From contig OZ024742.1 of the NCBI GenBank assembly GCA_964016885.1, forward strand, positions 137,082,001 through 137,146,000: a stretch of DNA of 64,000 nucleotides. Reading direction: 5' to 3'. Under the pieces are notes generated by a model. It had not been told where the DNA came from and ran no database searches. It saw nothing but the letters and a program-made list of their open reading frames with translations. Made by a program: the position numbers and the translations under genes. The first letter of the stretch is position 1. Each line of letters begins with the position of its first letter. Shown piece after piece: positions 11,921-64,000 of this stretch. This DNA is from Eledone cirrhosa (lineage: Eukaryota).

Positions 11921-12476
11921 TATATATTTATATATCTATCTATATGGATGTGTGTGTGTGTGTGTGCGTGTGCGTGTGTACATTTACATAAGCTACAATC
12001 GTAAAACTGCTTTGTGTACCGCCGCCGCTACCACCACCAGCATTAGCTCTACCACTACTACCTTGGGTGGTGATGCTGGCGATGGTGTTGGTGATAATCA
12101 CAAAGGGTGGTAGGAGGGCGATGTGACGATGACGGTATATGGACGAGGTGAAGAGCAGTGGGAGTCGGAAAAGTGATGGCGGTTTGGGTTTTACTGCAGA
12201 TATACTACTACCACCGCCGTTATTACTAGTATTATTGCCATTATTATTAATATTATTATTGGCGACCTACGTAGTAAATCGTATCATCGTGAGCTCCGCA
12301 AAGGTTTGTTATTTTCAGTCGTTTAAATTTGGCATTTATGGAAAATTTTTATTATTAACTGTATATAAGTGCACATACATTGATTTCTGAAAAGGACACT
12401 CAAAAATATTGGGGCCTTGAGCCCAAAATTTAAACTTTTTATCATTATCAAACAAAAAAAATTTCTTTGAAAATTG

Positions 12477-14391
12477 ATGGCCGACTCAGAATCACCCCTT
12501 CCTCACAAACTAAGACTTCACACCGACACCACCATTGTAAATATTACTACGTTTGCCAACACTAAAAATATCAGCAGTAGCAATATTTTAAATTTGTCTC
12601 AACTAAATATTAATTTCCCGCCATTACCAATGACTGCAGATATTAAAACCGCCACCCCCACCACGACCACCGCGACAACCACCACCCCCACCACCACCGC
12701 GACAACAGAAACAAAAGAAAAAAATAAATTAACTCGCGATATCGAAATGAATTCAACCAAAATGAACTCTTCCACACCGAACACCACTGACGCCACCACC
12801 ACCACAACTGAAACTAAAATTAACAATAACAAAAATAACGATAACAACAACAGCAACAATGAAATTAAGAAAACTACCCTGAGCTTTGACAGAGTTGCAA
12901 AAACGTGCGAAGCGATCCAGGTAACTCAGGAGGAATTAGAAGAAGCCAAAAGAATGGTAAAGAAAGATGGGTACAGGGTCAGCCCCCACCCCACCCCCAC
13001 CTAATAAAATGGAGCATCGTCGCCTATGCACCGTGTCTTATCGGACAATTAACGTAAAATCGCGCCGAGTGGAACGGGCATCCCAGTCCCAAATCCAAAA
13101 AACTTTGGGACATGTGTGGGCAAAAAAAACACACATCAGACGTGGGCAGAAATATGGAACCGTGGACGTGTTCTTTGAAACACCACAGGAGGCTAGAGAA
13201 CACTCCATGACCCCATTAAGAAGTGACGATTTCACACTCGTCCCAAGCTATTGTGGCCAGAGACTTGTGAAGATCAGGGTGACTCACGTTCCACCGGCCA
13301 TCGAAATTCCCTGGCTAATGGCTGCCGTCCTCGCCGGCATCGAGGCCAACACCAAGATAATCCAAATAGCGAAAGAAAAGCAGGAGAACTGGTCCGGATC
13401 TGGGATGGAGCTCTTGATCGAAGCGGACCATAAAAGCATTGAGGAGATCCCAGATATAATAGACCTCACTGACGGCAGCCACCTCACCGTAATCGTCAAG
13501 GACAGAAGGCCTAGGTGTGTCGTTTGTAGTGAAGGAACCCACCTAAGGGCTTTCTGCCCTCAGGCTAAAAGGTTGAGACCACCTCTCTTACCCACCCCAG
13601 TGACTCAACCTTCAACACCACCAGCAGCAGAAATGGCAGCAACAACTGTAGCAGCAACAACAGAAGCAACTGTAACAGCAACAACCCCAGCAACAGTAAC
13701 AAAACCAACACCACCACCACCGAACGCGCCAGAACTAGCACCAGCGCCTACACCATCCACCACGCCACAGCCAAAATCAACGCCTGTGGAGGATTTTCCA
13801 CTCCCCGGCTTATCGCAACTGGAGACAGATTGTGACGACGAGGAGTGGGAAACGGTGTCAGGAAAAAGGAAAAAAAGAAACCAAAAAAGAAAAAAATTCT
13901 CTTCCTTCCCCCTCCAAAAACAAAATACAGAGGGAAACAAATAAATTATCAAACAAAAATTTAGGACAGATATGCCACCATCCACACCAGCATCACCAAC
14001 CCCATCACCGCAAACACCAACACCATCACCATCATTAACCCCAACACCACCATCACCAACACCACAAAAGTCACCAAAAAGCGGAACAGAAACAAACCCA
14101 CAACAAACGCAAACAAAACAAAACAACCAAAACGATACACACTACACAGCATTAAATTTGAACAACAACCAATTATTACACTACATGCAACACAACACCA
14201 GCATCACAGAAAAAGACTACACAACAACCCAAAAGTTCACACGACCTCCACACATACAAATCACTCGCATCACACAGAAAACGTACACGACACTAAAACA
14301 AAATCTCCCCAAAGACATCGGAGACTTCCGACAAACACTCTCCAGGAGGATTTATAAGGACATCCTTCCGGAGGAGGCCACAAGCAGTTAA
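12477..14391 (+). pseudogene. LINE ORF1 (gag-like nucleic-acid-binding protein), frameshifted
   Basis: 12477-13004 shifts at the C-run near 12990 into 12967-13944, continuing in the same frame to 14391 past one TAA; CX2CX4HX4C knuckle CVVCSEGTHLRAFC (13516-13557); EWETVSGKRKKR; Pro/Thr-rich linker. Confidence 0.8.
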
Positions 14392-14467
14392 AAGGATGGA
14401 CACACCATCCTTCCTCTACGAGAAGTAAGGTAAGTGGTCTTTCCCATCTTTTCCACTCCATTTCAAC

Positions 14468-17400
14468 ATGACTTCTCTCAGAATAGACAGCATAAATGCG
14501 CGTGGCTTGGGATTGTCATGGAAGTAGGGCCACCTGCTCAACAACTTCAGGTCACTAAACATAGATGTAGTGGCCATCAGCGAGACCAGAATCTCCGAAG
14601 TACGGGCCTTCGCACCGATCTTCGGCGGCTACGATGTGTACGTATCTCCCAGCCGTCCTGGATCGGGGGGAGGAGTTACTGTGCTTTTTTGGAGACGTTT
14701 GGATCTCGCCATACGAGTCATCTTCCTGGACCCAGAAGGTAAGTTGGTGGTGCTAGACGTGACCAGCAGAGACGAGCAAGCTTTCAGGCTAGTGGCCGTC
14801 TATGCCCCGACAGGAGCATGGCGGCCTGATTTATTCCGGCGTCTGGTGACCTTTCTTGGAACGTCCCGCACTTTAGTGTTAGTGGGCGACTGGAACGGGA
14901 TCTTAGATGCACGCTGGGACTGTGTGGGATGAGCGTATAGGGGAGGAGGGTGCAAGAGCCTGACCAACCTGCTCAGGAGTTTTGAGCTGTCTGACAGGTA
15001 CCGATTCAATTTCCTGAATGTGCCAATGTGGACATGGACAAATTGCATAGGGTCATCTAGATCATATATATATAGAGTATTTAGTAGGGAAATAGATAGG
15101 TCTAGCATAGGCTGTCCACAATTCAAGGTAGTCAGCTACACGGACCACAAATCGTGATCTGTGTGCTTGACTTAGATAGGCTTCATAGACTAGGACCCGG
15201 CTACTGGAAGCTACACCCGTCCTTACCAGCGCGCAAGGCCTACATAGACCGGATTAGCGAACTAGTTAAGCGAGCGTTGACGGGGGCCATCGTCAACAAC
15301 AAGTGTTGGTTTGCTCTGAAAAGAGCAAATAGAATAGAGTCCATTAGGTTTAGTAAGGCTTTAGCAATAAAGAAAAATAGAGCAGAGGGAGAATTAGTTA
15401 GAAAATTAGACGAGGCGCTTAGCAAAGGCATCGCGACCGACGTAATCTCAGCGAAATTGGCCCTTGACCAATTCTTCAAAGCAAAGCACGAAGGCTAGGG
15501 TGCGTGCTCTCAGACACGAGGGGACGAAAGCCGTTCAATGGGCCCGAGTGGCAGAGGCTCGTCGTGGCAACAAACCACGATCCCGTCTTTGGTGGACCAC
15601 GACGGGCGCATGCTACTCGATCCGGGAAAATGTGTGAAGCTTTTCAGAGACATTTCCCTCAGCTGTTCTGGGGCAGCGGCGGGCCGGATCGAGGGATGGA
15701 CTTTAGTGTCTACCTCGACGGACTGCCGCGGCTCTCGGCCACTGAGGCGGAGTGTTGCGAAAAGCCGATAACAGCGTCTGAAGTACGAGAGGCAATGACT
15801 GGCTGCACAAGGGGTAAATCGCCTGGTTTGGATGGTCTGCCCTATGAACTTTACGTACAAATGCCAGACTTGTTCGGAGGCCTCTTGGCGGACGTCTACT
15901 GCAACTGGCAACAGAACGTGAGAATTCCCAGCTCTGGAGCCGAGGAGCTGTGGCGCTGCCTGAGAAAGGATCCGAACAAGGGGGTTAAAATAGATAATTT
16001 TAGGCCCATAACTCTGCTAAACACAGAGTTCAAGATTTTGGCCAAGGTGCGAGCAAAGAAGTTGGCGGTTGTTGTTGGTGGTCTGGTGGGAGAGGCGCAG
16101 ACATGCGCCATTCCCGTCAGATCCATCCACGACTACCTCTACCTCATGCGATACATCGTAGAGAGGGGAGGGTAGCTAGGGAACCTGGCTACGGGTGGGT
16201 CCTTGAACAATTTAGATCAGTCGAAAGCTTTCGATAGGGTCGACCATCGTTACCTAGCGGCAGTCCTGAGGGCGGCTGGCTTTGGGCCCGTCTTCAGAGG
16301 CTGGATCGCTGCCATGCACAGCGACATCTGCTCTGTGGTGAGAGTGAACGGTCACCTTTCTGAACCGTTCAACATCATGCGCTCGGTCCGCCAAGGATGT
16401 CCCCTCTCGTCCCTCTTGTACGTATTGACTCTCGAGCCATTACTGCGGAAACTGGAGACGTTGAGGGGCGTCCCGCGCGAACTAGGATGCGGAAGATCCG
16501 TGTCAGCATATGCAGACGATGTCACCGTAGTGGTGTCGAACGCCAAACACATCGAGGCGATCGGCACTACACTAAGAGAATACGAAGCGGTGACAAGAAC
16601 AATGATCAACCAGGAAAAGTCAGTGGGCCTGCAGCTCGGCACCTGGAGAGGCAGGTCCATGCCGTCCAACAGCGTCGTCGGACGCTGGGCGGACGGACCG
16701 GTTAAATTGCTAGGGGTCTGGTTTGGTCCGGACCTCCAGACGGACAAAAACTGGGACGGGGTGACGAGCAGGTTGGCTTCTCTCACCCAGAAATGGGCGG
16801 AGAGGAAGCTATCCCTGAAAGGTCGAGCGGAGGTGGCTAACGCGTACATCGCGTCTGTCATCTGCAACCGCCTGACCGTCGTACCTTGTCCTAAGCCTCG
16901 CCTGACTGCGCTGGAGCGTTTTCTCTTTCGCTTTTTGTGGAAGGGACGCGCTCCGATGGTCAGGCGGTTCATCTGTTGTCAACACCCGCTACGTGGAGGG
17001 CTGGGAATGCCGTGGCTGATGATGCGCAGTCACGCGCTCAGGCTACGACATCTCCACCTCTTCTTCGACGGTGATCAGGTGTGGTCGCCGTTTGCTAGAC
17101 ACGTATTTCCCCAGCTCGTTTCCTTGACGGAGCTGCAGTCCTGGGTCAAGCGAAGACCGAGAGGAAGCGCCTGGAGACTGGAATGTCTTCAGGCGCTCAC
17201 AGCCCTCGACCAATCGGGCAATGTGATCGGTGGAAACTCCACCTCGGCGTTCTATAGAGGATTAGTGGAGAGGAAGAGCGACGACGTACTTGGGGAAACT
17301 CTAGGCGTCGACGAAAATCAACTAGCCAATCTCTTCGGAAGAACTTTCGGGCCAGGGCCTATGGACAACTTCCAGAAATCTCTGGCCTGGCAGTGCTACC

Positions 17401-17875
17401 GAGGAGCCTTGCCAGTTCGGGATAAACTCTACAGGCATGGAGGTGCCGTCAGCCGGGCATGTCCGAGATGCGCGCAGGGCGACGAAACCGTCCCGCACGC
17501 ACTCGTCCAGTGTCCGAAAATTGCTGACTTGTGGGTTTATGTCAACACCTGCTGTCGCGTGTAGGACGGATCCGGCTATCATCTGAGTCCATCGTGAGGA
17601 TTGCCCCGCCCTCTTCCTTTAGCCGGGAAGGGTAGGCAGTTATTATCTGTCTGGTGGCCATGGCGAAAGAGATAGTATGGTGGACACGTTTGAAAGGGCT
17701 GAAGACGAGAACTTACCTCTTCGGTGATGCCCTGATTGACTTTTTCAAATTTCATTTGAAAAGGAAAATCAGAGTAGAGAGGGAAGTGCTCTCTTCCCAG
17801 CATTTTGTTGAAAGATGGGTGAGAGAAGCAAGAATGGCCCGAGTGAATGGGCCTACTCTGAGCATGTGTCTGTAA
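14468..17875 (+). pseudogene. LINE ORF2 (AP endonuclease + reverse transcriptase + CCHC), with stops and frameshifts
   Basis: MTSLRIDSINARGL, AISET, VYAP, GDWN, TDH (APE); KSPGLDGLP, FRPITLLNT, LDQSKAFDRV, VRQGCPLS, YADD at 16509-16520 (RT); CPRC..ETVPHALVQC. Confidence 0.93.
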
Positions 17876-51249: not shown

Positions 51250-51284
<35 letters not shown>

Positions 51285-51477
51285 TCAGGTTTGAGGTTCA
51301 CCACTTGATAGAGCTTGTCTATTCCGTATGGTCAATCGTAATGTAATAATATAGAGGGTACTCAACGTAAAGCAGTTCAACCGTCTTTGTTTTTGTAGTT
51401 GGTGGTGCTATTACGGAGTTAAATATTATAATGAAATGATAGGAGGCTGGATTTGTGTAACTCCTTGAAAGGTTTAT

Positions 51478-51537
51478 TATACTATGATCATTTCAATGAC
51501 CGGGTTCCGTATGAATCCGGTGATATCATCAGGTATA
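51478..51537 (-). ncRNA. Type I hammerhead ribozyme motif (left arm)
   Basis: Mirror of 55805-55864. Confidence 0.75.
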
Positions 51538-53394
51538 CGAAATATAATACCTGAATGTAATAGATAAAATCCATGGGGCTGAAAATCGAGGACCCGAGGG
51601 CGATCGCTATCCTGTACCTCTACCTTAGCCGGTCGCCCTCGAGTGACGTGGCTGAAGCTTACAGTGTGCTACTACCGGTCAGTTAAAGGAAAACAGAAAG
51701 GGATGGGAACATAAGTTACCGTTAATCTCATGCCACAAGACAAAAGAAAGGAAGAAAGGAGGGAGAGAGAAGAAGGGGGAAGGAGGAAGAAGAGAAGCCA
51801 GGGTTAATATCAGCTATAAGAAAAAAGACAGAAAGAAAGAGGAGGAAAGGTCGGTATTAGAGTCAGGCCAGGATTGGCGCGAAGAAATTTTTTTTATTCT
51901 ACGTGACCCGTATCTAAACAACTACTACCGGTCAGATATAGGCAAACAAAAAGGGGGAAGCAAGATAAGTCTGCGGGATGAAGACAGAAAGAGGGGAGAA
52001 GAGAAGGAAGAGAATGAAGAAGTAGAAAAGTAAGGGTTGGTGGCTACAAGAAGGAAGATAGAAATAAAGAGGAAGAAAGGTCGATATTAATGTCAGACTT
52101 GGTCAGGCCAGGAGTGGCGCGAGAAAATGTTCACAGGGACCCGTATCTTAGCAGAGGTGAATATATTGGGGGTCAGTGTGTTATAATGTGTGAGCAGAAT
52201 ATTGGAACGTTACGTTTTTGTTTAGACTTTAGGATGAAGTTAAAAATTAATAATTTATATTTAATATTAAAGAAATTAGAAAATTTAAAGTTAAGCAGTT
52301 TAACATTTTAAGGTTGATATATCTAATAGTTCTGATTTTATCTGTAATTTAAAGGTACTATGTGGCGGTTAAAACACCGGCCGCGCTCCGGGCCCCCGGG
52401 GCGAATTAAGCCCCTCCGAGTAGTTTCATTTACCGAAAGAAGGGGAAATTTATTTTTCCAAGCACTCAAGGTAGGCCCATGCGCCAGGGGGCTGGTCGCG
52501 CCGCCATTAAAACTCACCCAACAGTCCGACAGAAAGTTGGAACTTTAAAATATTGTTTAAATTTATAGGATGAAGTTGAAACATTTATAATTAATATTTA
52601 ATATCAAAGAAATTAGAAAATTTAATGTTAAACAGTTTAACATTTTAAGGTTGATATATCTAATAGTTCTGATTTTATCTGTAATTTAAAGGTACTATGT
52701 GGCGGTTAAAACACCGGCCGCGCTCCGGGCCCCCGGGGCGAATTAAGCCATTCCGAGTAGTTTCATTTACCGAAAGAAGGGGAAATTTATTTTTCCAAGC
52801 ACTCCAGGTAGGCCCATGCGCCAGGTGGCTGGTCGCGCCGCCATCAAAACCCACCCAGCAGTCCGACAGAAAGTTAGAACTTTAAAATATTGCTTAAATT
52901 TATAGGATGACGTTGAAAGAATTCAGAATAACATCATAAAATTAAAGAGTAAGAAGATTGAGAATTGAACAAACAGAAAATTGAAAATTAAACATTTAAA
53001 AAAAGTTCTATGAGTTTTGGGTTGCGGGGTTTAATTAAAGAGAGTCTTTTATGAAGAAACGCTCATTGTATTATGTAGATCTATAATTTATCCTAGAGGG
53101 ATGTAGAGTACGGGATATAGTCGGGTAATATTTATTTTTGTTCTCAGGGGGAGACATTCTAGTGTCGTGTGCCAATGGGTACAAGTGAGCAAAAGTCCCA
53201 ATAGGAGGAGTGGAAATACATGGATACATAGAAGTGGTATACGTGGAAGAGCACATTGATAAAACAAAGGTATAAATATATAAACATATCAATATATAGA
53301 TATAAATATGTAAATAAACCAATTGAGAGTGGTGTTGGAGTAAGATGGAGAAATCAAGACATAGAAGAAGTACAATATAGTTCAGGTTGCAGTA

Positions 53395-53582
53395 TGTGGT
53401 TTGGCAGTATCGGTAGAGGGTCGGACGCCATGCTTTCAAGCATAGTTACCTCCATTTACGATCTGAGTTCAAATCCCGCCGAAGTTGACTTTGCCTTTCA
53501 TCCTTACGGGTTCGATAAAATAAAGTACCAGTAATGCACTGGGTAATTGCTGGCCTTGTGCCTAAAGTAGAAACAAGTATTT
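53395..53582 (+). mobile_element. tRNA-SINE copy in the fold-back spacer
   Basis: Full SINE body and tail. Confidence 0.9.
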
Positions 53583-55804
53583 ATGTTCCCAGGGGGAGAC
53601 ATTCCAGTGTCGTGTCCTAAGGGTACACGCGAGTAAAAGTCTGAATAAGGGAAGTAAAAAGTACATGGATGTATAGAGGTAGAATACGTGGAAAAGCATT
53701 AATACAGCAAATAAAGATGTAAAGATATAAATAAACAAACAAGAGTCGTTGTCTAGTAAATGGAGTGTTCAAGACACAGGAGAAATACAATATAGTTCAA
53801 GTTGCAGTCAGATAATGCATATAGATGTGGAAATGGAATCACTGTGTGTTCGAGTCTGGGAATTCAGTGTGAGTTATACATGTTCATAAGTATAGGGTAG
53901 CAAATTTAGTTAATACAGTGCAGTCCAATACATGTTATGTTATAATCCGTAGAGTTTCGTCGAAGTCCGAATATTCTGAGAGGGAAGTAGCAATGGGCCA
54001 TGCGAAAACACCGAGTAGCCAAAGTTTATTTACATATTTATATCTATATATTGATATGTTTATATATTTATACCTTTGCTTTATCAATGTGCTCTTCCAC
54101 GTATTCCACTTCTATGTATCCATGTATTTCTACTGCTCCTATTGGGACTTTTGCTCACTTGTACCCATTAGCACACGACACTAGAATGTCCCCCACTGAG
54201 AACAAAAATAAATATTACACGACTATATCCCGTACTCTACATCCCACTAGGATAAATTATAGATCTACATAATACAATGAGCGTTTCTTCATAAAAGACT
54301 CTCTTTAATTAAACCCGGCAATCCAAAACCTCATAGAAGTTTTTTTAAATGTTTAATTTTCAATTTTCTGTTTGTTCAATTCTCAATCTTCTTACTCTTT
54401 AAGTTTATAATGTTATTCTGAATTCTTTCAACTTCATCCTATAAATTTAAGCAATATTTTAAAGTTCTAACTTTCTGTCGGACTGCTGGGTGGGTTTTAA
54501 TGGCGGCGCGACCAGCCACCTGGCGCATGGGCCTACCTGGAGTGCTTGGAAAAATAAATTTCCCCTTCTTTTGGTAAATCAAACTACTCGGAGGGGCTTA
54601 ATTCGCCCCGGGGGCCCGGAGCGCGGCGAGTGTTTTAACCGCCACATAGTACCTTTAAATTACAGATAAAATCAGAACTATTAGATATATCAACCTTAAA
54701 ATGTTAAACTGATTAACTTTAAATTTTCTAATTTCTTTGATATTAAATATTAATTATAAATTTTTCAACTTCATCCTATAAATTTAAACAATATTTTAAA
54801 GTTCCAACATTCTGTCGGACTTTTGGGTGGGTTTTAATGGCGGCGCGACCAGCCCCCTGGCGCATGGGCCTACCTTGGGTGCTTGGAAAAATAAATTTCC
54901 CCTTCTTTTGGTAAATGAAACTACTCGGAGGGGCTTAATTCGCCCCGGGGGCCCGGAGCGCGGCGAGTGTTTTAACCGCCACATAGTACCTTTAAATTAC
55001 AGATAAAATCAGAACTATTAGATATATCAACCTTAAAATGTTAAACTGCTTAACTTTAAATTTTCTAATTTCTTTAATATTAAATATAAATTATTAATTT
55101 TTAACTTCATCCTATAAGTCTAAACAAAAACGTAACGTTCCAATATTCTGCTCACACATTATAACACACTCACCCCCAATATATTCACCTCTGCTATGAT
55201 ACGGGTCCCTGTGAACATTTTCTCGCGCCACTCCTGGCCTGACTGTAGTCTGACATTAATATCGACCTTTCTTCCTCTTTCTCTCTATCTTCCTTCTTGT
55301 AGCCACCAACCCTTACTTTTCTACTTCTTCATTCTCTTCCTTCTTTTCTCCCCTCTTTCTGTCTTCATCCCGCAGACTTATCTTCCCCTTTTTTGTTTGC
55401 CTATATCTGACCGGTAGTAGTTGTTTGGATACGGGTCCCGTAAAATAAAAAAAATTTCTTCGCGACAATCCTGGCCTGACTGTAATACCGACCTTTCCCC
55501 CTCTTTCTTTCTGTCTTTCTTCTTATAGCTGACATTAACCCTGGCTTCTCTTCTTCTTCCTTCCCCCGTCTTCTCTCTCCCTCCTTTCTTTCTTTCTTTT
55601 GTCTTGTGGCATGAGATTAACGGTAACTTATGTTCCCATCCCTTTCTGTTTTCCTTTAACTGACCGGTAGTAGCACACTGTAAGCTTCAGCCACGTCACT
55701 CGAGGGCGACCGGCTAAGGTAGAGGTACAGGATAGCGATCGCCCTCGGGTCCTCGATTTTATGCCCCATGGATTTTATCTATTACATTCACGTATTATAT
55801 TTCG

Positions 55805-55864
55805 TATACCTGATGATATCACCGGATTCATACGGAACCCGGTCATTGAAATGATCATAGTATA
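55805..55864 (+). ncRNA. Type I hammerhead ribozyme motif (right arm)
   Basis: TATAC-CTGATGA-tATcACCGG..CCGGTcATt-GAAA-TGATCA-TA-GTATA, then AATAAA at 55864; palindromic stem III ATGATCAT; cleavage predicted after 55859. Confidence 0.75.
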
Positions 55865-55919
55865 ATAAACCTTTCAAGGATTTACACAAATCCAGCCTCC
55901 TATCATTTCATTATAATAT

Positions 55920-55950
<31 letters not shown>

Positions 55951-55980: not shown

Positions 55981-56045
<65 letters not shown>

Positions 56046-56535
56046 CGGAGGAAACAATACAAGTGCTGTTTACGAAGGACCTACTCCTAAACAAAAAAGA
56101 CAAACATGTAATCGCATGTAAACACCGATTGCGTGGAACATACCCCCTCAAACCCCCTCATGACCCGGGTGGGTAGACAATGGCTGTAACATAATTCTGT
56201 TCCCCACTTCCTTACATAGGTAGATGTAATTCTTTTCTTTTCTTTTTTCCCTTTATCTCTTCTCCTCACTTCCTGCCAATCCCTTTCCTCTTCCTTTTTC
56301 CTTTTTCCTATTTCGCTTAACCATCGGGCTTTTTAGCCTCAGTAGCCCCACCCCCGTAAATTCTATAAAGCATTGGCCGCAAACGCAATACCATCTAAAA
56401 ATATAGCAACTGTTTTAAACTCTAGTTTTTATTATTTAATTTTTTAATATTATTATTTATTATTTATTAATTTTTTAATTTAAATTTATTAACTTTTAAA
56501 GTTGTTAATTTTATAACATCCTACTCTCAGATTCC

Positions 56536-56682
56536 TAATTTAGTCCAGAAATAGCCATCGAAACGGCTTGAGCCCTGCCGTCGTGGTTTTGAAAATTTTC
56601 CTATTACCCACTCTACTACCCAAAGTATTGAGTACTCTGTTGCGTTACGGTCCACATTGTTCCTCAGCACACTTCCATCATA
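56536..56682 (+). mobile_element. Family B insert ending in (TA)n
   Basis: Homologous to 6947-7083 and 42568-42759. Confidence 0.7.
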
Positions 56683-57950: not shown

Positions 57951-58329
57951 ATATATTGGTAAAAAGAAAAGAAAATACGGACAAATTGTTCCCAGTGAAA
58001 AATAGTTTCATTAGGAATAAGTAAAAATTAGTAATAGTATTGGTTAGTATTCAGTTTTGGTTTTAAGTTTTACCGGTTGCGCATTTCTAATGCTTTTCAA
58101 AAATAATTTTGAGATAGAGCGCCCGTGATGTTTGCTCAAACCAGATTAGAGCAAACATCACGGGCGCTCTATCTCAAAATTATTTTTGAAAAGCATTAGA
58201 AATGCGCAACTGTTAAAACTTAAAACCAAAACTGAATACTAACCAATACTATTACTAATTTTTACTTATTCTTAATTAAACTATTTTTCACTGGGAACAA
58301 TTTGTCAGCATTTTCTTTTCCTTTTACCA

Positions 58330-58336
<7 letters not shown>
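57951..58336. repeat. 385-bp fold-back palindrome
   Basis: Arms 57951-58137/58149-58336, 11-nt loop; contains GAAA-TGCGCA; ends in (TA)n. Confidence 0.85.
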
Positions 58337-61480: not shown

Positions 61481-64000
61481 GTTTTCTTTATTAACCACAA
61501 GGGTTTACATAAAGAAGACATTAAGGACAGTACAGGACAATACAGGACGGTACAAATGGGCATTTCTGCGTCTAAAAAAAAACAGAGGATGTAATAAAAT
61601 AACAAAGAAAAATTCCCCAATAGGGGGGGGGGGAGACTTCCGAGGGACATTTGTGGAGAAAGCCCATTAAAAGACCACAGTGACCCAAACCACCAGGGCA
61701 AGTGCCCTCTCACAGTTTTCCACCTTTAATTTACAGACACATACTCGGGCCATACTTGCTTCTCTCACCCATCTTTCAACAAAATGCTGGGAAGAGAGCA
61801 CTTCCCTCTCTACCCTGATTTTCCTTTTCAAATGAAATTTGAAAAAGTTAAGCAGGGCATCACCGAAGAGATAAGTGCTCGTCTTCAGCCCTTTCAAACG
61901 TGTCCACCATACTATCTCTTACGCCATGGCCACCAGACAGATAAAAACTGCCTGCCCTTCCCGGCTAAAGGAAGAGGGCAGGGTAATCCTCACGATGGAC
62001 TCAGCTGATAGCTGGATCCGTCCTACACGTGACAGCAGGTGTTTGACATAAACCCACAAGTCAGCAATGCTCGGACACTAGACGAGTGCGTGCAGGACGG
62101 TTTCGTCGCCCTGTGCGCATCTCGGACATGCCCGCTGACGGCACCTCCATGCCTGTAGAGTTTATCTCGAACTGGCAAAGCTCACCGGTAGCACTGCCAG
62201 GCCAGGGATTTCTGGAAGTTGTCCAGAGGCCCTGGCCCGAAAGTCCGTCCGAAGAGATTGGCTAGTTGATTTTCGTCGACGCCTAGAGTTTCTCCAAGTA
62301 CGTCGTCGCTCTTCCCCTCCACTAATCCTCTATAGAACGCCAAGGTGGAGTTTCCACCGTTCACATTGCCCGATTGGTCGAGGGCTGTGAGCGCCTGAAG
62401 AGATTCCAGTCCGCAAGCGCTCCCTCTCGGTCTTCGCTTGACCCAGGACTGCAGCTCCGTCAAGGAGACGAGCTGGGGAAAGACGTGTCTAGCAAACGGC
62501 GACCACACCTGATCACCGACGAGGAAGAGGTGGAGATGTCGTAGCCTGAGCGCGTGTCTGCGCATCATCAACCACGGCATGCCCAGCCCTCCACGTAGCG
62601 GGTGTTGACAGCAGATGGACCGCCTGACCATCGGAGCGCGTCCCTTCCACAAAGAGCGAAAGAGCAAACGCTCCAGCGCAGTCAGGCGGGGCTTAGGACA
62701 AGGTACGACGGTCAGGCTGTAGTAGATCATGTATGCGAGCGATATACGCGTTAGCCACCTCCGCTCGACCTTTAAGGGATAGCTTCATCTCGGCCTATTT
62801 CTGGGTGAGAGAAGCCACCCTGCTCGTCACCTCGTCCCAGATTTTGTCCGTCTGGAGATCCGGACCGAACCAGACCCCGAGAAATTTAACTGGTCCGTCC
62901 GTCCAGCTCCCGACGACGCTGTTGGACAGCATGGACCTGCCTCTCCAGGTGCCGAGCTGCAGGCCCACTGACTTTTCTTGGTTGATCATTGCTCCTGTCA
63001 CCGCTTCGTATTCTCTTATTGTAGTGCCGATCGCCTCGATGTGTTTGGCGTTTGACACCACTGCAGTGACATCGTCCGCATATGCTGACACGGATCTTCC
63101 GCATCCTAGTTCGCGCGGGACCCCCCTCAACGTCTCCAGTTTGTGCAGTAATGGCTCGAGAGTCAATACGTACAAGAGGGACGAGAGGGGACATCCTTGG
63201 CGGACCGAGCGCATGATGTTGAACGGTTCCACAAGGTGACCGTTCACTCTCACCACAGAGCAGATGTTGCTGTGCATGGCAGCGATCCAGCCTCTGAAGA
63301 CGGGCCCAAAGCCAGCCGCCCTCAGGACTGCCGCTAGGTAACGATAGTCGACCCTATCGAAAGCTTTCTACTGATCTAAATTGATCAAGGACCCACCCGT
63401 GCCAGGTTCCCTAGCTACCCTCTATACGATGTATCGCATGAGGTGGAGATTGCCGTGGATAGATCTGTCGGGAATGGCGCATGTCTGCGCCTCTCCCACC
63501 AGACCAATGACAAGCGCCAACCTCTTTGCTAGCACCTTGGCCAACATTTTGAACACTGTGTTTAGTAAAGTTATGGGCCTAAAATTATCTATGTTATCCC
63601 CCTTTTTCGGATCCTTTCTCAGCAGCGCCACAGCTCCTCGGCTCACAGAGCTGGGAATTCTCCCGTTCTGTTGCCAGTTGCAGTAGACGTCCGCCAAGAG
63701 GCCTCCGAACAAGTCTGGCATCTGTACGTAAAGTTCATAGGGCAGACCATCCAAACCAGGCGATTTACCCCTTGTGCAGCCACTCATTGCCTCCCGTATT
63801 TCAGCAGCTGTTATCGGCTTTTCGCAACACTCCGGCTCAGTGGCCAAGAGCCGTGGCAGTCCGTCGAGGTAGACACTAAAGTCCATCCCTCGACCGGGCC
63901 CACCAATGCCCCCGAACAGCTGAGCGAAATGTCGCTGAAAAGCTTCACACATTTGCCCGGGATCGAGTAGCATGCGCCCGTCATTGTCCACCAAAGACCG
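61481..64000 (-). mobile_element. Second Tx1/L1-clade LINE copy (RT to 3' end; continues beyond the window)
   Basis: Closely similar to ~15585-18120; KSPGLDGLP, FRPITLLNT, VRQGCPLS, YADD; independent stops and frameshifts; ends in ATT repeats. Confidence 0.93.

What the first reader, a model, noticed from the sequence alone, without database searches (positions are those of the whole stretch)
51422..55920. 4.5-kb giant palindrome with outward-facing hammerhead + polyA signal at both ends
Seen: ~1.9-kb inverted arms, each ending outward in HHR-AATAAA-~50 nt. The arms are modular, with a purine-rich ~250-bp duplication (51670-52150), a 337-bp GC-cored duplication (52231-52904), and a module (53135-53392) re-duplicated in the spacer (53581-53808). 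There is no credible ORF. The arms differ at scattered sites, which argues against a read or assembly fold-back artefact. Inference: a large non-autonomous Penelope-like element in head-to-head arrangement; a read-through transcript would form ~1.9 kb of dsRNA trimmed by the 3' ribozyme.
Basis: partly seen in the sequence, partly recalled or inferred. Interest (0 to 1): 0.75.

Follow-up and report, generated by a model that had tools for sequence, protein, structure and literature searches.

The report
Back-to-back non-coding Penelope retroelement copies
This 4.6-kb mirror repeat is two back-to-back copies of a very common, protein-free jumping element that carries a hammerhead-shaped RNA motif and was likely written into a TA repeat by the reverse transcriptase of a Penelope-type retrotransposon, a known footprint that is unusual here mainly because the repeating unit is over 2 kb long.

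Summary
The palindrome is real (arms 97% alike), but it is not a unit in itself. The family has 5,541 exact hammerhead-pattern matches (control 0). Its outer ends fall at two fixed sites beside (TA)n and its inner ends vary; 49 of 58 two-armed insertions pair one long end with one short end. Tandem copies define a 2.0-2.6-kb unit with no ORF. An inverted 5'-truncated copy plus a one-sided tail is the published Penelope-like element (PLE) footprint. The U.U-closed hammerhead and the hairpin behind each end match coding Hydra-clade PLEs in this genome. No coding partner shares the end. Cleavage, expression, dsRNA and polyadenylation are unshown. This scan noted the same footprint, twin hairpins included, on other DNA of this genome and in another genome. 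What is new is the size (over twice the longest surveyed animal retrozyme) and a conserved, repeatedly duplicated internal 56-nt block.

The parts
51284..55920 (.). Whole two-armed insertion (4,637 bp including a later SINE), between (TA)n tracts
51284..54023 (-). Left copy: near-complete non-coding unit, long (tailed) 3' end at 51284, lacking only the 87 nt that join 54023 to the next unit
54024..55920 (+). Right copy: inverted, 5'-truncated at the equivalent of 53319, short 3' end at 55920
51284..51421 (-). One-sided tail, about 137 nt, between the short and the long family end
51358..51419 (-). First bulged hairpin (ACTC-CGTA..TACG-TT-GAGTAC, AC-rich loop) a few bases 3' of the short end; the second one lies in the 87 nt missing from this copy
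51478..51537 (-). Type I hammerhead-shaped motif, left copy
   Evidence: sequence
55805..55864 (+). Type I hammerhead-shaped motif, right copy: U.U at the base of stem II, palindromic stem III, predicted cut after 55859
   Evidence: sequence
55864..55869 (+). AATAAA overlapping the 3' strand of stem I (mirror 51473-51478); function not shown
   Evidence: sequence
51604..51641 (-). GC-rich hairpin about 70-100 nt upstream of the hammerhead, kept with changed sequence in other subfamilies (seen by eye only)
51669..52131 (-). Purine-rich (pyrimidine-rich in element sense) old duplication
52195..52948 (-). 337-bp tandem duplication, shared with L014, L030 and L070
52416..52471 (-). Most conserved internal block (second copy 52753-52808; mirrors about 54873-54928 and 54536-54591), foldable as a three-helix junction; function unknown
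53133..53808 (-). Old tandem module pair (53133-53395 and 53576-53808, 72.5% alike), split by the SINE
53396..53580 (+). SINE inserted later; A- and B-box-like motifs by eye; 20 further BLAST hits in the window; absent from other family copies
54021..54026 (.). Inversion junction 54023|54024 with about 3 nt (GTT) of microhomology
51263..51283 (.). Left (TA)n target tract
55921..55941 (.). Right (TA)n target tract, followed by (TG)n

Best explanation
The palindrome is one two-armed insertion of a high-copy, protein-free repeat family whose 2.0-2.6-kb unit carries a hammerhead-shaped motif, and it was likely made by a Hydra-clade Penelope-like RT-endonuclease borrowed from another element. Shown: two fixed outer ends 137 nt apart, variable inner ends, (TA)n on both sides, one long plus one short end per insertion, precise tandem read-through, no ORF, and arms more alike than unrelated copies. 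Inferred: the borrowed enzyme binds the RNA at two small bulged hairpins and cuts a TA repeat on both strands. It would start reverse transcription inside the RNA, just 5' of hairpin 2 on one DNA end (tailed copy) and just 5' of hairpin 1 on the other (short copy). The two cDNAs would grow towards each other, stop at variable points and be joined through a few bases of microhomology. Here both ran unusually far (2.55 kb without the SINE, and 1.9 kb). A SINE then inserted, and each arm gathered about 1.5% of its own mutations. The hammerhead is likely weak as a monomer and does not set the ends.
For: Family size: 5,541 pattern matches, reversed control 0. Among the first 100 listed, neighbours within 6 kb are 21 outward-facing, 1 tandem and 2 inward. 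Of 196 distinct outer ends, 105 are at the long site, 83 at the short site and 8 elsewhere; (TA)n follows 92 of 105 and 75 of 83. Of 58 two-armed insertions with both ends in view, 49 are long+short, 6 long+other, 2 short+short and 1 long+long (p about 5e-12 for 49 of 52 against one half); in the 45 not picked by a long-end pattern the split is 38/4/2/1. Tandem junction 54023+87 nt to 51284 aligned in 22 loci. All 30 read-through loci fetched (of 152 matches) lack a coding frame there; 28 show more of the same body and 2 (L247, L250) show little or rearranged body. No PLE protein similarity in 8 unit sequences against 13 Hydra-type frames. Arms differ by 2.7% within insertions and 5.2% between; shared rare alleles 0.19% against 0.011% (34 insertions). 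Tandem units differ by 2.84%, inverted pieces by 3.13%, unrelated loci by 5.5% (58 loci). In the window, 44 of 55 arm differences are private and 16 rare alleles are shared by both arms. Junction overlap is 2-6 nt in 15 of 27 (null for >=2 nt: 16.5%). Intact-looking Hydra-type frames of 636-786 aa exist in the genome. Their 5' regions read hammerhead, RCTC..T(T/A)GAGYAC hairpin, second hairpin, ATG, as ours does. U.U at the base of stem II occurs upstream of Hydra-type motifs in L322, L323 and L325 and in 3 of the 6 Hydra rows of the published table that I saw. Published footprint: PMC8557442. Two internal RT starts defining the tail, and both strands cut and extended: PMC11167929.
Against: No coding element sharing this end was found among 170 partly overlapping PLE-bearing loci; the four with family pieces (L106, L230, L333, L354) hold separate insertions bounded by (TA)n. 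The Hydra link therefore rests on short motifs and target choice; Neptune-like and other PLEs are also abundant here. 10 of 27 junctions have extra or unaligned bases and 2 have 0-1 nt of overlap. Local gene conversion is visible in the right arm (same private changes at 52378-9/52715-6 and 52435/52772 equivalents), so shared alleles between arms could partly come from later conversion. The hammerhead core is barely more conserved than its neighbours (0.955 against 0.93 for stem II and 0.91 downstream), and the catalytic fold scores -5.1 against -16.0 kcal/mol for the best fold. The tail is longer than the 30-40 bp in print. No empty target site was available.
Confidence: 0.88

Rival explanations
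1. Same footprint, but the mobiliser is a Neptune-, Poseidon- or Naiad-type PLE, or the unit is the long untranslated repeat of a coding element not yet sampled.
For: Over 10,000 GIY-YIG candidates and several Neptune-like families with hammerheads, one with a similar six-base palindromic stem III and with duplicated modules in long 3' regions. Only 30 of 152 read-through loci were examined.
Against: The twin hairpin and the U.U stem II base match Hydra-type families. No sequence similarity to any sampled coding end. Tandem units close without an ORF.
Confidence: 0.08
2. A DNA foldback or Mutator-like transposon with 1.9-kb modular terminal inverted repeats.
For: Long modular inverted arms, AT-rich ends and no ORF.
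Against: The outer ends are unequal by rule (49 of 58), inner ends vary from about 60 nt to over 2 kb, tandem and more-than-unit copies exist, and no 9-11-bp duplication is seen.
Confidence: 0.02
3. A single insertion later turned into a palindrome by local DNA repair, or an assembly fold-back.
For: Both arms share 16 rare alleles, and conversion occurs locally.
Against: The arms differ at 55 sites, 44 of them private; only one arm has the tail; the same geometry recurs in 58 sampled loci; L361 is a 4.9-kb example with 2-kb arms.
Confidence: 0.02
4. The locus is kept as a source of long dsRNA or small RNA, trimmed by the 3' ribozyme.
For: 97% complementarity over 1.9 kb would fold if the locus were transcribed.
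Against: The arms drift apart like other copies (2.9% here; 2.7% family mean). The catalytic fold is disfavoured even in isolation, and the antisense arm would pair with the motif (inference).
Confidence: 0.05

Closest known systems
Insertions of endonuclease-bearing Penelope-like elements (Craig et al. 2021, PMC8557442; passages, section 11 and supplement rows seen)
   Same: Partial tandems, an inverted 5'-truncated copy at the 5' end, a tail at one end only, (TA)n targets, and a hammerhead in the terminal repeat.
   Different: No ORF; tail about 137 nt against 30-40 bp; long+short pairing is close to a rule here.
Hydra clade of PLEs (same paper; Hydra-1_Obim, Hydra-1/2_Ajap, Hydra-2_Amil, Hydra-1_Crog)
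   Same: (TA)n preference; hammerhead with U on both sides at the base of stem II (3 of 6 Hydra rows seen); a GCTC..TTGAGCAC hairpin behind the hammerhead of Hydra-2_Amil and of coding families in this genome; unit under 3 kb.
   Different: No RT-endonuclease frame and no alignable similarity to any sampled coding family.
Anolis Poseidon element PAc (Frangieh et al. 2024, PMC11167929; parts 1-2 of 4 read)
   Same: Two internal reverse-transcription starts that define the tail, AT-rich targets, both strands extended, and a hammerhead that does not set the insertion end.
   Different: PAc is autonomous and its starts lie inside the ORF; the two-armed product was not described in the parts I read.
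Animal non-LTR retrozymes (Cervera and de la Pena 2020, PMC7229834, passages; Li, Clavereau and Pollet 2026, bioRxiv 10.64898/2026.07.22.740005, part 1 of 5, section 12 and passages)
   Same: Non-coding unit with one type I hammerhead, tandem copies, presumed dependence on PLEs.
Non-autonomous Chlamys elements such as MRC1 (passage in PMC8557442)
   Same: Non-coding PLE derivatives with pseudo-LTRs and head-to-tail copies.
   Different: Other clade and kingdom; those share 3' sequence with autonomous partners, which I could not show here.
Foldback / Mutator-like DNA transposons (recalled, no call)
   Same: Long modular inverted arms.
   Different: Unequal outer ends, free inner ends, tandem copies and no fixed target duplication.

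Membership tests
PLE-type insertion | Fixed 3' ends with variable 5' truncation | tested here: met
   188 of 196 outer ends at two sites; variable inner ends
PLE-type insertion | Partial tandem (pseudo-LTR) and inverted 5'-truncated copy | tested here: met
PLE-type insertion | Tail at one end only | tested here: met
   49 of 58 long+short; tail 137 nt, longer than the 30-40 bp in print
PLE-type insertion | Hammerhead motif in the terminal repeat, sense strand | tested here: met
   motif by sequence; not detected by Rfam
Autonomous PLE | ORF with RT and GIY-YIG endonuclease | tested here: not met
Hydra-clade-dependent element | (TA)n targeting | tested here: met
   167 of 188 long or short ends; also typical of Naiads, so not specific
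Hydra-clade-dependent element | Hydra-type cis motifs (U.U stem II base, bulged hairpin behind each end) | tested here: met
   short motifs judged by pattern and by eye
Hydra-clade-dependent element | 3' sequence shared with a named coding Hydra family | tested here: not met
   none in the Hydra-motif loci L181-L230, L261-L290, L321-L360; a small sample of 6,385 motif matches
Non-LTR retrozyme | Non-coding tandem unit with one type I hammerhead | tested here: met
Non-LTR retrozyme | Short unit (about 300 bp; at most 972 bp surveyed) | tested here: not met
   long-end spacings of 1,965-2,546 bp
Non-LTR retrozyme | Self-cleavage and abundant circular RNA | not testable with these tools
   needs in vitro transcription and RNA samples
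Non-LTR retrozyme | More-than-unit copies made from one template | tested here: inconclusive
   tandem units as alike as arms (2.84% and 3.13% against 5.5%); fits a circle, a homogeneous tandem transcript or conversion
Foldback / Mutator-like DNA element | Matching termini on both arms | tested here: not met
   3 of 52 classifiable insertions have equal ends
Foldback / Mutator-like DNA element | 9-11-bp target-site duplication | tested here: inconclusive
   none visible, but (TA)n flanks would hide it

The most novel reading that the evidence does not exclude
The family is a giant retrozyme: a 2.0-2.6-kb non-coding RNA that cuts itself as a dimer, circularises, and is copied from the circle at two hairpin-marked starts by a Hydra-type enzyme. 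Its conserved 56-nt three-helix block, duplicated separately in several subfamilies, would be a second functional RNA domain (promoter-linked or circle-maintenance signal) not yet described.
Probability: 0.2. Interest if true: 0.65.

Novelty: new member of a known kind. Interest (0 to 1): 0.3.

Why it matters
The 'giant palindrome' is the long end of a continuum of ordinary two-armed Penelope-type insertions, so such structures in this genome should not be annotated as DNA foldback elements or hairpin-RNA genes. Because the family has thousands of copies and no coding constraint, it gives a clean ruler for the open question of how PLE tails and inverted copies arise: two starts 137 nt apart, one per DNA end, each a few bases before a bulged hairpin, which is testable with a Hydra-type protein from the same genome. 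If the unit also proved to be a self-cleaving circle, it would more than double the known size range of animal retrozymes.

Tried and rejected
Rfam scans of the window and of the element found no ribozyme family, only miRNA-model hits on microsatellites and perfect hairpins. Partner search: GIY-YIG family scan, neighbouring ORFs in L033, L035, L038-L040, L045 and L051, two Hydra motif scans with flanks, and read-through loci gave no partner; the nearby ORFs looked like separate insertions. My hammerhead regex takes the shortest stem III and missed the window's own motif, so the motif lists are incomplete. Part of the output was cut. Covariation test of the internal block: 97% of cells pair, but 0 pairs change on both sides and shuffles do as well; the wider alignment gave no consensus fold, so the structure is unsupported. 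Sequencing runs: no RNA holder listed. Three contig sets from one sample and one reduced-representation DNA read set hold the family, and two of the contig sets show the SINE-free join, but no listed piece bridges 54023|54024; this says nothing for or against the assembly here. AATAAA as the signal for the ends was rejected because the ends carry no poly(A) and the template must run past both; some coding families also have AATAAA just after stem I (L329, L336) and others do not, so a role is open. ARAGORN found no tRNA. Look-ups of earlier findings by sequence and nearby place were empty. A Pfam scan of one Hydra-type frame was not obtained, so the Hydra label rests on motifs compared by eye with the paper's text and alignment. 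Literature searches listed no description of this family or of a non-coding hammerhead PLE unit above 1 kb in animals; listings only, and Repbase/Dfam and the preprint's supplements could not be seen.
Full report
Observation. The window lies in a 3.0-Gb animal genome rich in TA microsatellites. An octopod host is likely, judging by the similarity of local PLE proteins to Hydra-1_Obim seen by eye; I did not determine it. The inverted arms 51422-53319 and 54024-55920 are 96.7% alike with 55 mismatches. No frame exceeds 125 aa and none of the five tested hits Pfam. A type I hammerhead shape can be read at 55805-55864 and its mirror, followed by AATAAA; Rfam does not score it.

It is a family. The terminal 281 bp drew 2,206 candidates, of which 40 were scored. 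An exact pattern for the motif has 5,541 matches and none for the reversed control. Among the first 100 listed, close neighbours are 21 outward-facing pairs, 1 tandem and 2 inward. Copies share the hammerhead-proximal end and stop at varied inner points. Many continue 137 nt past 51422 in the same sequence as the window's left flank, so the left copy really ends at 51284. The spacer is the 5' part of the left copy with a SINE at about 53396-53580 that other copies lack. Beyond 54023, other copies run through 87 nt into the long end of the next unit (22 loci aligned). Spacings of successive long ends are 1,965-2,546 bp; the window's version computes to about 2.64 kb. Related subfamilies are about 75-88% alike and keep both ends.

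End rules. Of 196 distinct outer ends, 105 are long, 83 short and 8 elsewhere; 42 further long sites read through. (TA)n follows 167 of the 188. Of 58 two-armed insertions with both ends in view, 49 are long+short, 6 long+other, 2 short+short and 1 long+long; 45 of these were not picked by a long-end pattern and split 38/4/2/1. The loci come from best-hit and position-ordered searches, not from a random draw. The window is long (left) plus short (right). Of 27 direct junctions, 15 overlap by 2-6 nt, 2 by 0-1 nt and 10 hold extra or unaligned bases; random joints reach 2 nt in 16.5% (overlaps are BLAST-based and rough). The window's junction has GTT. Its size is at the upper end but not unique: L361 is 4.9 kb with 2-kb arms and L070 is 7 kb.

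One template, then drift. Of the 55 arm differences, 44 are private to one arm and 11 recur elsewhere, while 16 rare alleles spread over 1.6 kb are shared by both arms. Across 34 insertions arms differ by 2.7% against 5.2% between insertions, and share rare alleles 17 times more often. Tandem units inside one insertion are as alike as inverted pieces (2.84% and 3.13% against 5.5%). This fits one event from one template, circular or tandem. Later conversion cannot be excluded, because the right arm shows a conversion tract between its two 337-bp repeats.

No protein, no partner found. Eight unit sequences gave no hit to 13 Hydra-type frames and ATG frames of at most 102 aa. Six unit sequences gave only SINE-derived or marginal hits to the frames of the GIY-YIG loci. 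None of 30 read-through loci leads into a coding frame. The genome holds many coding PLEs: 10,597 GIY-YIG candidates with Neptune-like frames, and 723 and 6,385 matches to two Hydra-type motifs with frames of 636-786 aa. In 170 partly overlapping loci around these, family pieces appeared four times, each as a separate insertion bounded by (TA)n.

Link to the Hydra clade. Earlier notes of this scan pointed to Hydra and to a hairpin behind each end; I tested this. In this family ACTC-CGTA..TACG-TT-GAGTAC follows the short end and GCTC-C..G-TT-GAGCAC follows the long end, 145 nt apart. My pattern found the first hairpin in 4 and the second in 7 of 10 loci; the others are mutated or truncated. Coding Hydra-type families show the same order of hammerhead, hairpin, hairpin, ATG, with spacings of about 67 and 114 nt, and their copies end a few bases before the hairpins. 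The odd U.U at the base of stem II recurs upstream of Hydra-type motifs in L322, L323 and L325 and in 3 of the 6 Hydra rows I saw in File S2 of PMC8557442, although G10.1-C11.1 is called highly conserved for PLE hammerheads in PMC4209133 (parts 1-2 of 4 read). The palindromic stem III fits the dimer-type motifs of that paper. The catalytic fold is 11 kcal/mol above the best fold and the stem III dimer gives -7.2; core conservation is only slightly above its surroundings. Activity is therefore unshown and probably low as a monomer.

Mechanism. Shown: geometry, ends, targets, tandem join, absence of coding, arm relatedness. Taken from print: PLE insertions often carry an inverted 5'-truncated copy and a tail at one end (PMC8557442); a purified PLE protein cuts and extends both strands of AT-rich DNA and starts inside the RNA at two sites that define the tail, without needing the ribozyme (PMC11167929). 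Inferred: a Hydra-type enzyme acting in trans primes on both ends of a cut TA repeat, one start per hairpin, and the two cDNAs are joined head to head.

What is left over. A 56-nt internal block is almost invariant where its flanks diverge, has 832 pattern matches (the 30 loci fetched all match this family), and is duplicated at spacings of 337, about 478, 505 and 513 bp in different copies. It folds on paper into three helices but has no compensatory pair, so a DNA-binding or promoter role is equally open.

Verdict. A real structure, a new family of a known kind: a non-autonomous PLE-type element in the published two-armed form, probably Hydra-driven. The scan has noted the same footprint on other DNA several times. 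Interest 0.3; 0.65 if it proves to be a self-cleaving 2-kb-plus circle.

Noticed in passing
window 57951-58335: A second palindrome: 190-nt arms, 96% complementary, 5-nt loop, between TA tracts; possibly another two-armed insertion or a MITE.
   Followed up: no
window 56480-56680: End piece with a GCTTGAGC..GTATTGAGTACTCTG hairpin followed by (TA)n, resembling by eye the tail of the coding Hydra-type family in L321/L342.
   Followed up: partly
window 56045-56173: Translated hit (64% over 44 aa) to the start of the stop-to-stop frame of Hydra-type locus L267, directly right of the element; may be upstream non-coding repeat, not protein.
   Followed up: no
window 12471-17564: Broken LINE with endonuclease (PF03372), RT (PF00078) and zf-RVT (PF13966) pieces.
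   Followed up: partly
window 54536-54970: Gene conversion between the two 337-bp repeats of the right arm: the same private changes sit in both repeats.
   Followed up: partly
window 55805 and mirror 51537: A rare allele shared by both arms extends hammerhead stem I from 4 to 5 pairs.
   Followed up: partly
L070:1977-8976 and L361:2085-6982: Sibling arrays 0.9 Mb apart built from a shorter 2.1-kb unit that joins the 53395 equivalent to the long end at a TTCAGGTT repeat; L070 has one more unit.
   Followed up: partly
L323 and L339, about 1.2 kb upstream of the RT motif: Coding Hydra-type family whose hammerhead core reads CAGAAGA instead of CUGANGA, with U.U at the base of stem II.
   Followed up: no
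L101, L102, L110, L112: Neptune-like family with a U3-A8 core variant (TTGAAAA) and palindromic stem III; L101 holds a 938-aa frame.
   Followed up: no
L045:6570-9350, L040, L051: Further PLE families only 22-30% alike to the Neptune-like proteins, one inserted inside a copy of this element.
   Followed up: partly
window 62182-63970: GC-rich stretch with several frames of 100-200 aa; no Pfam hit for the three tested.
   Followed up: no
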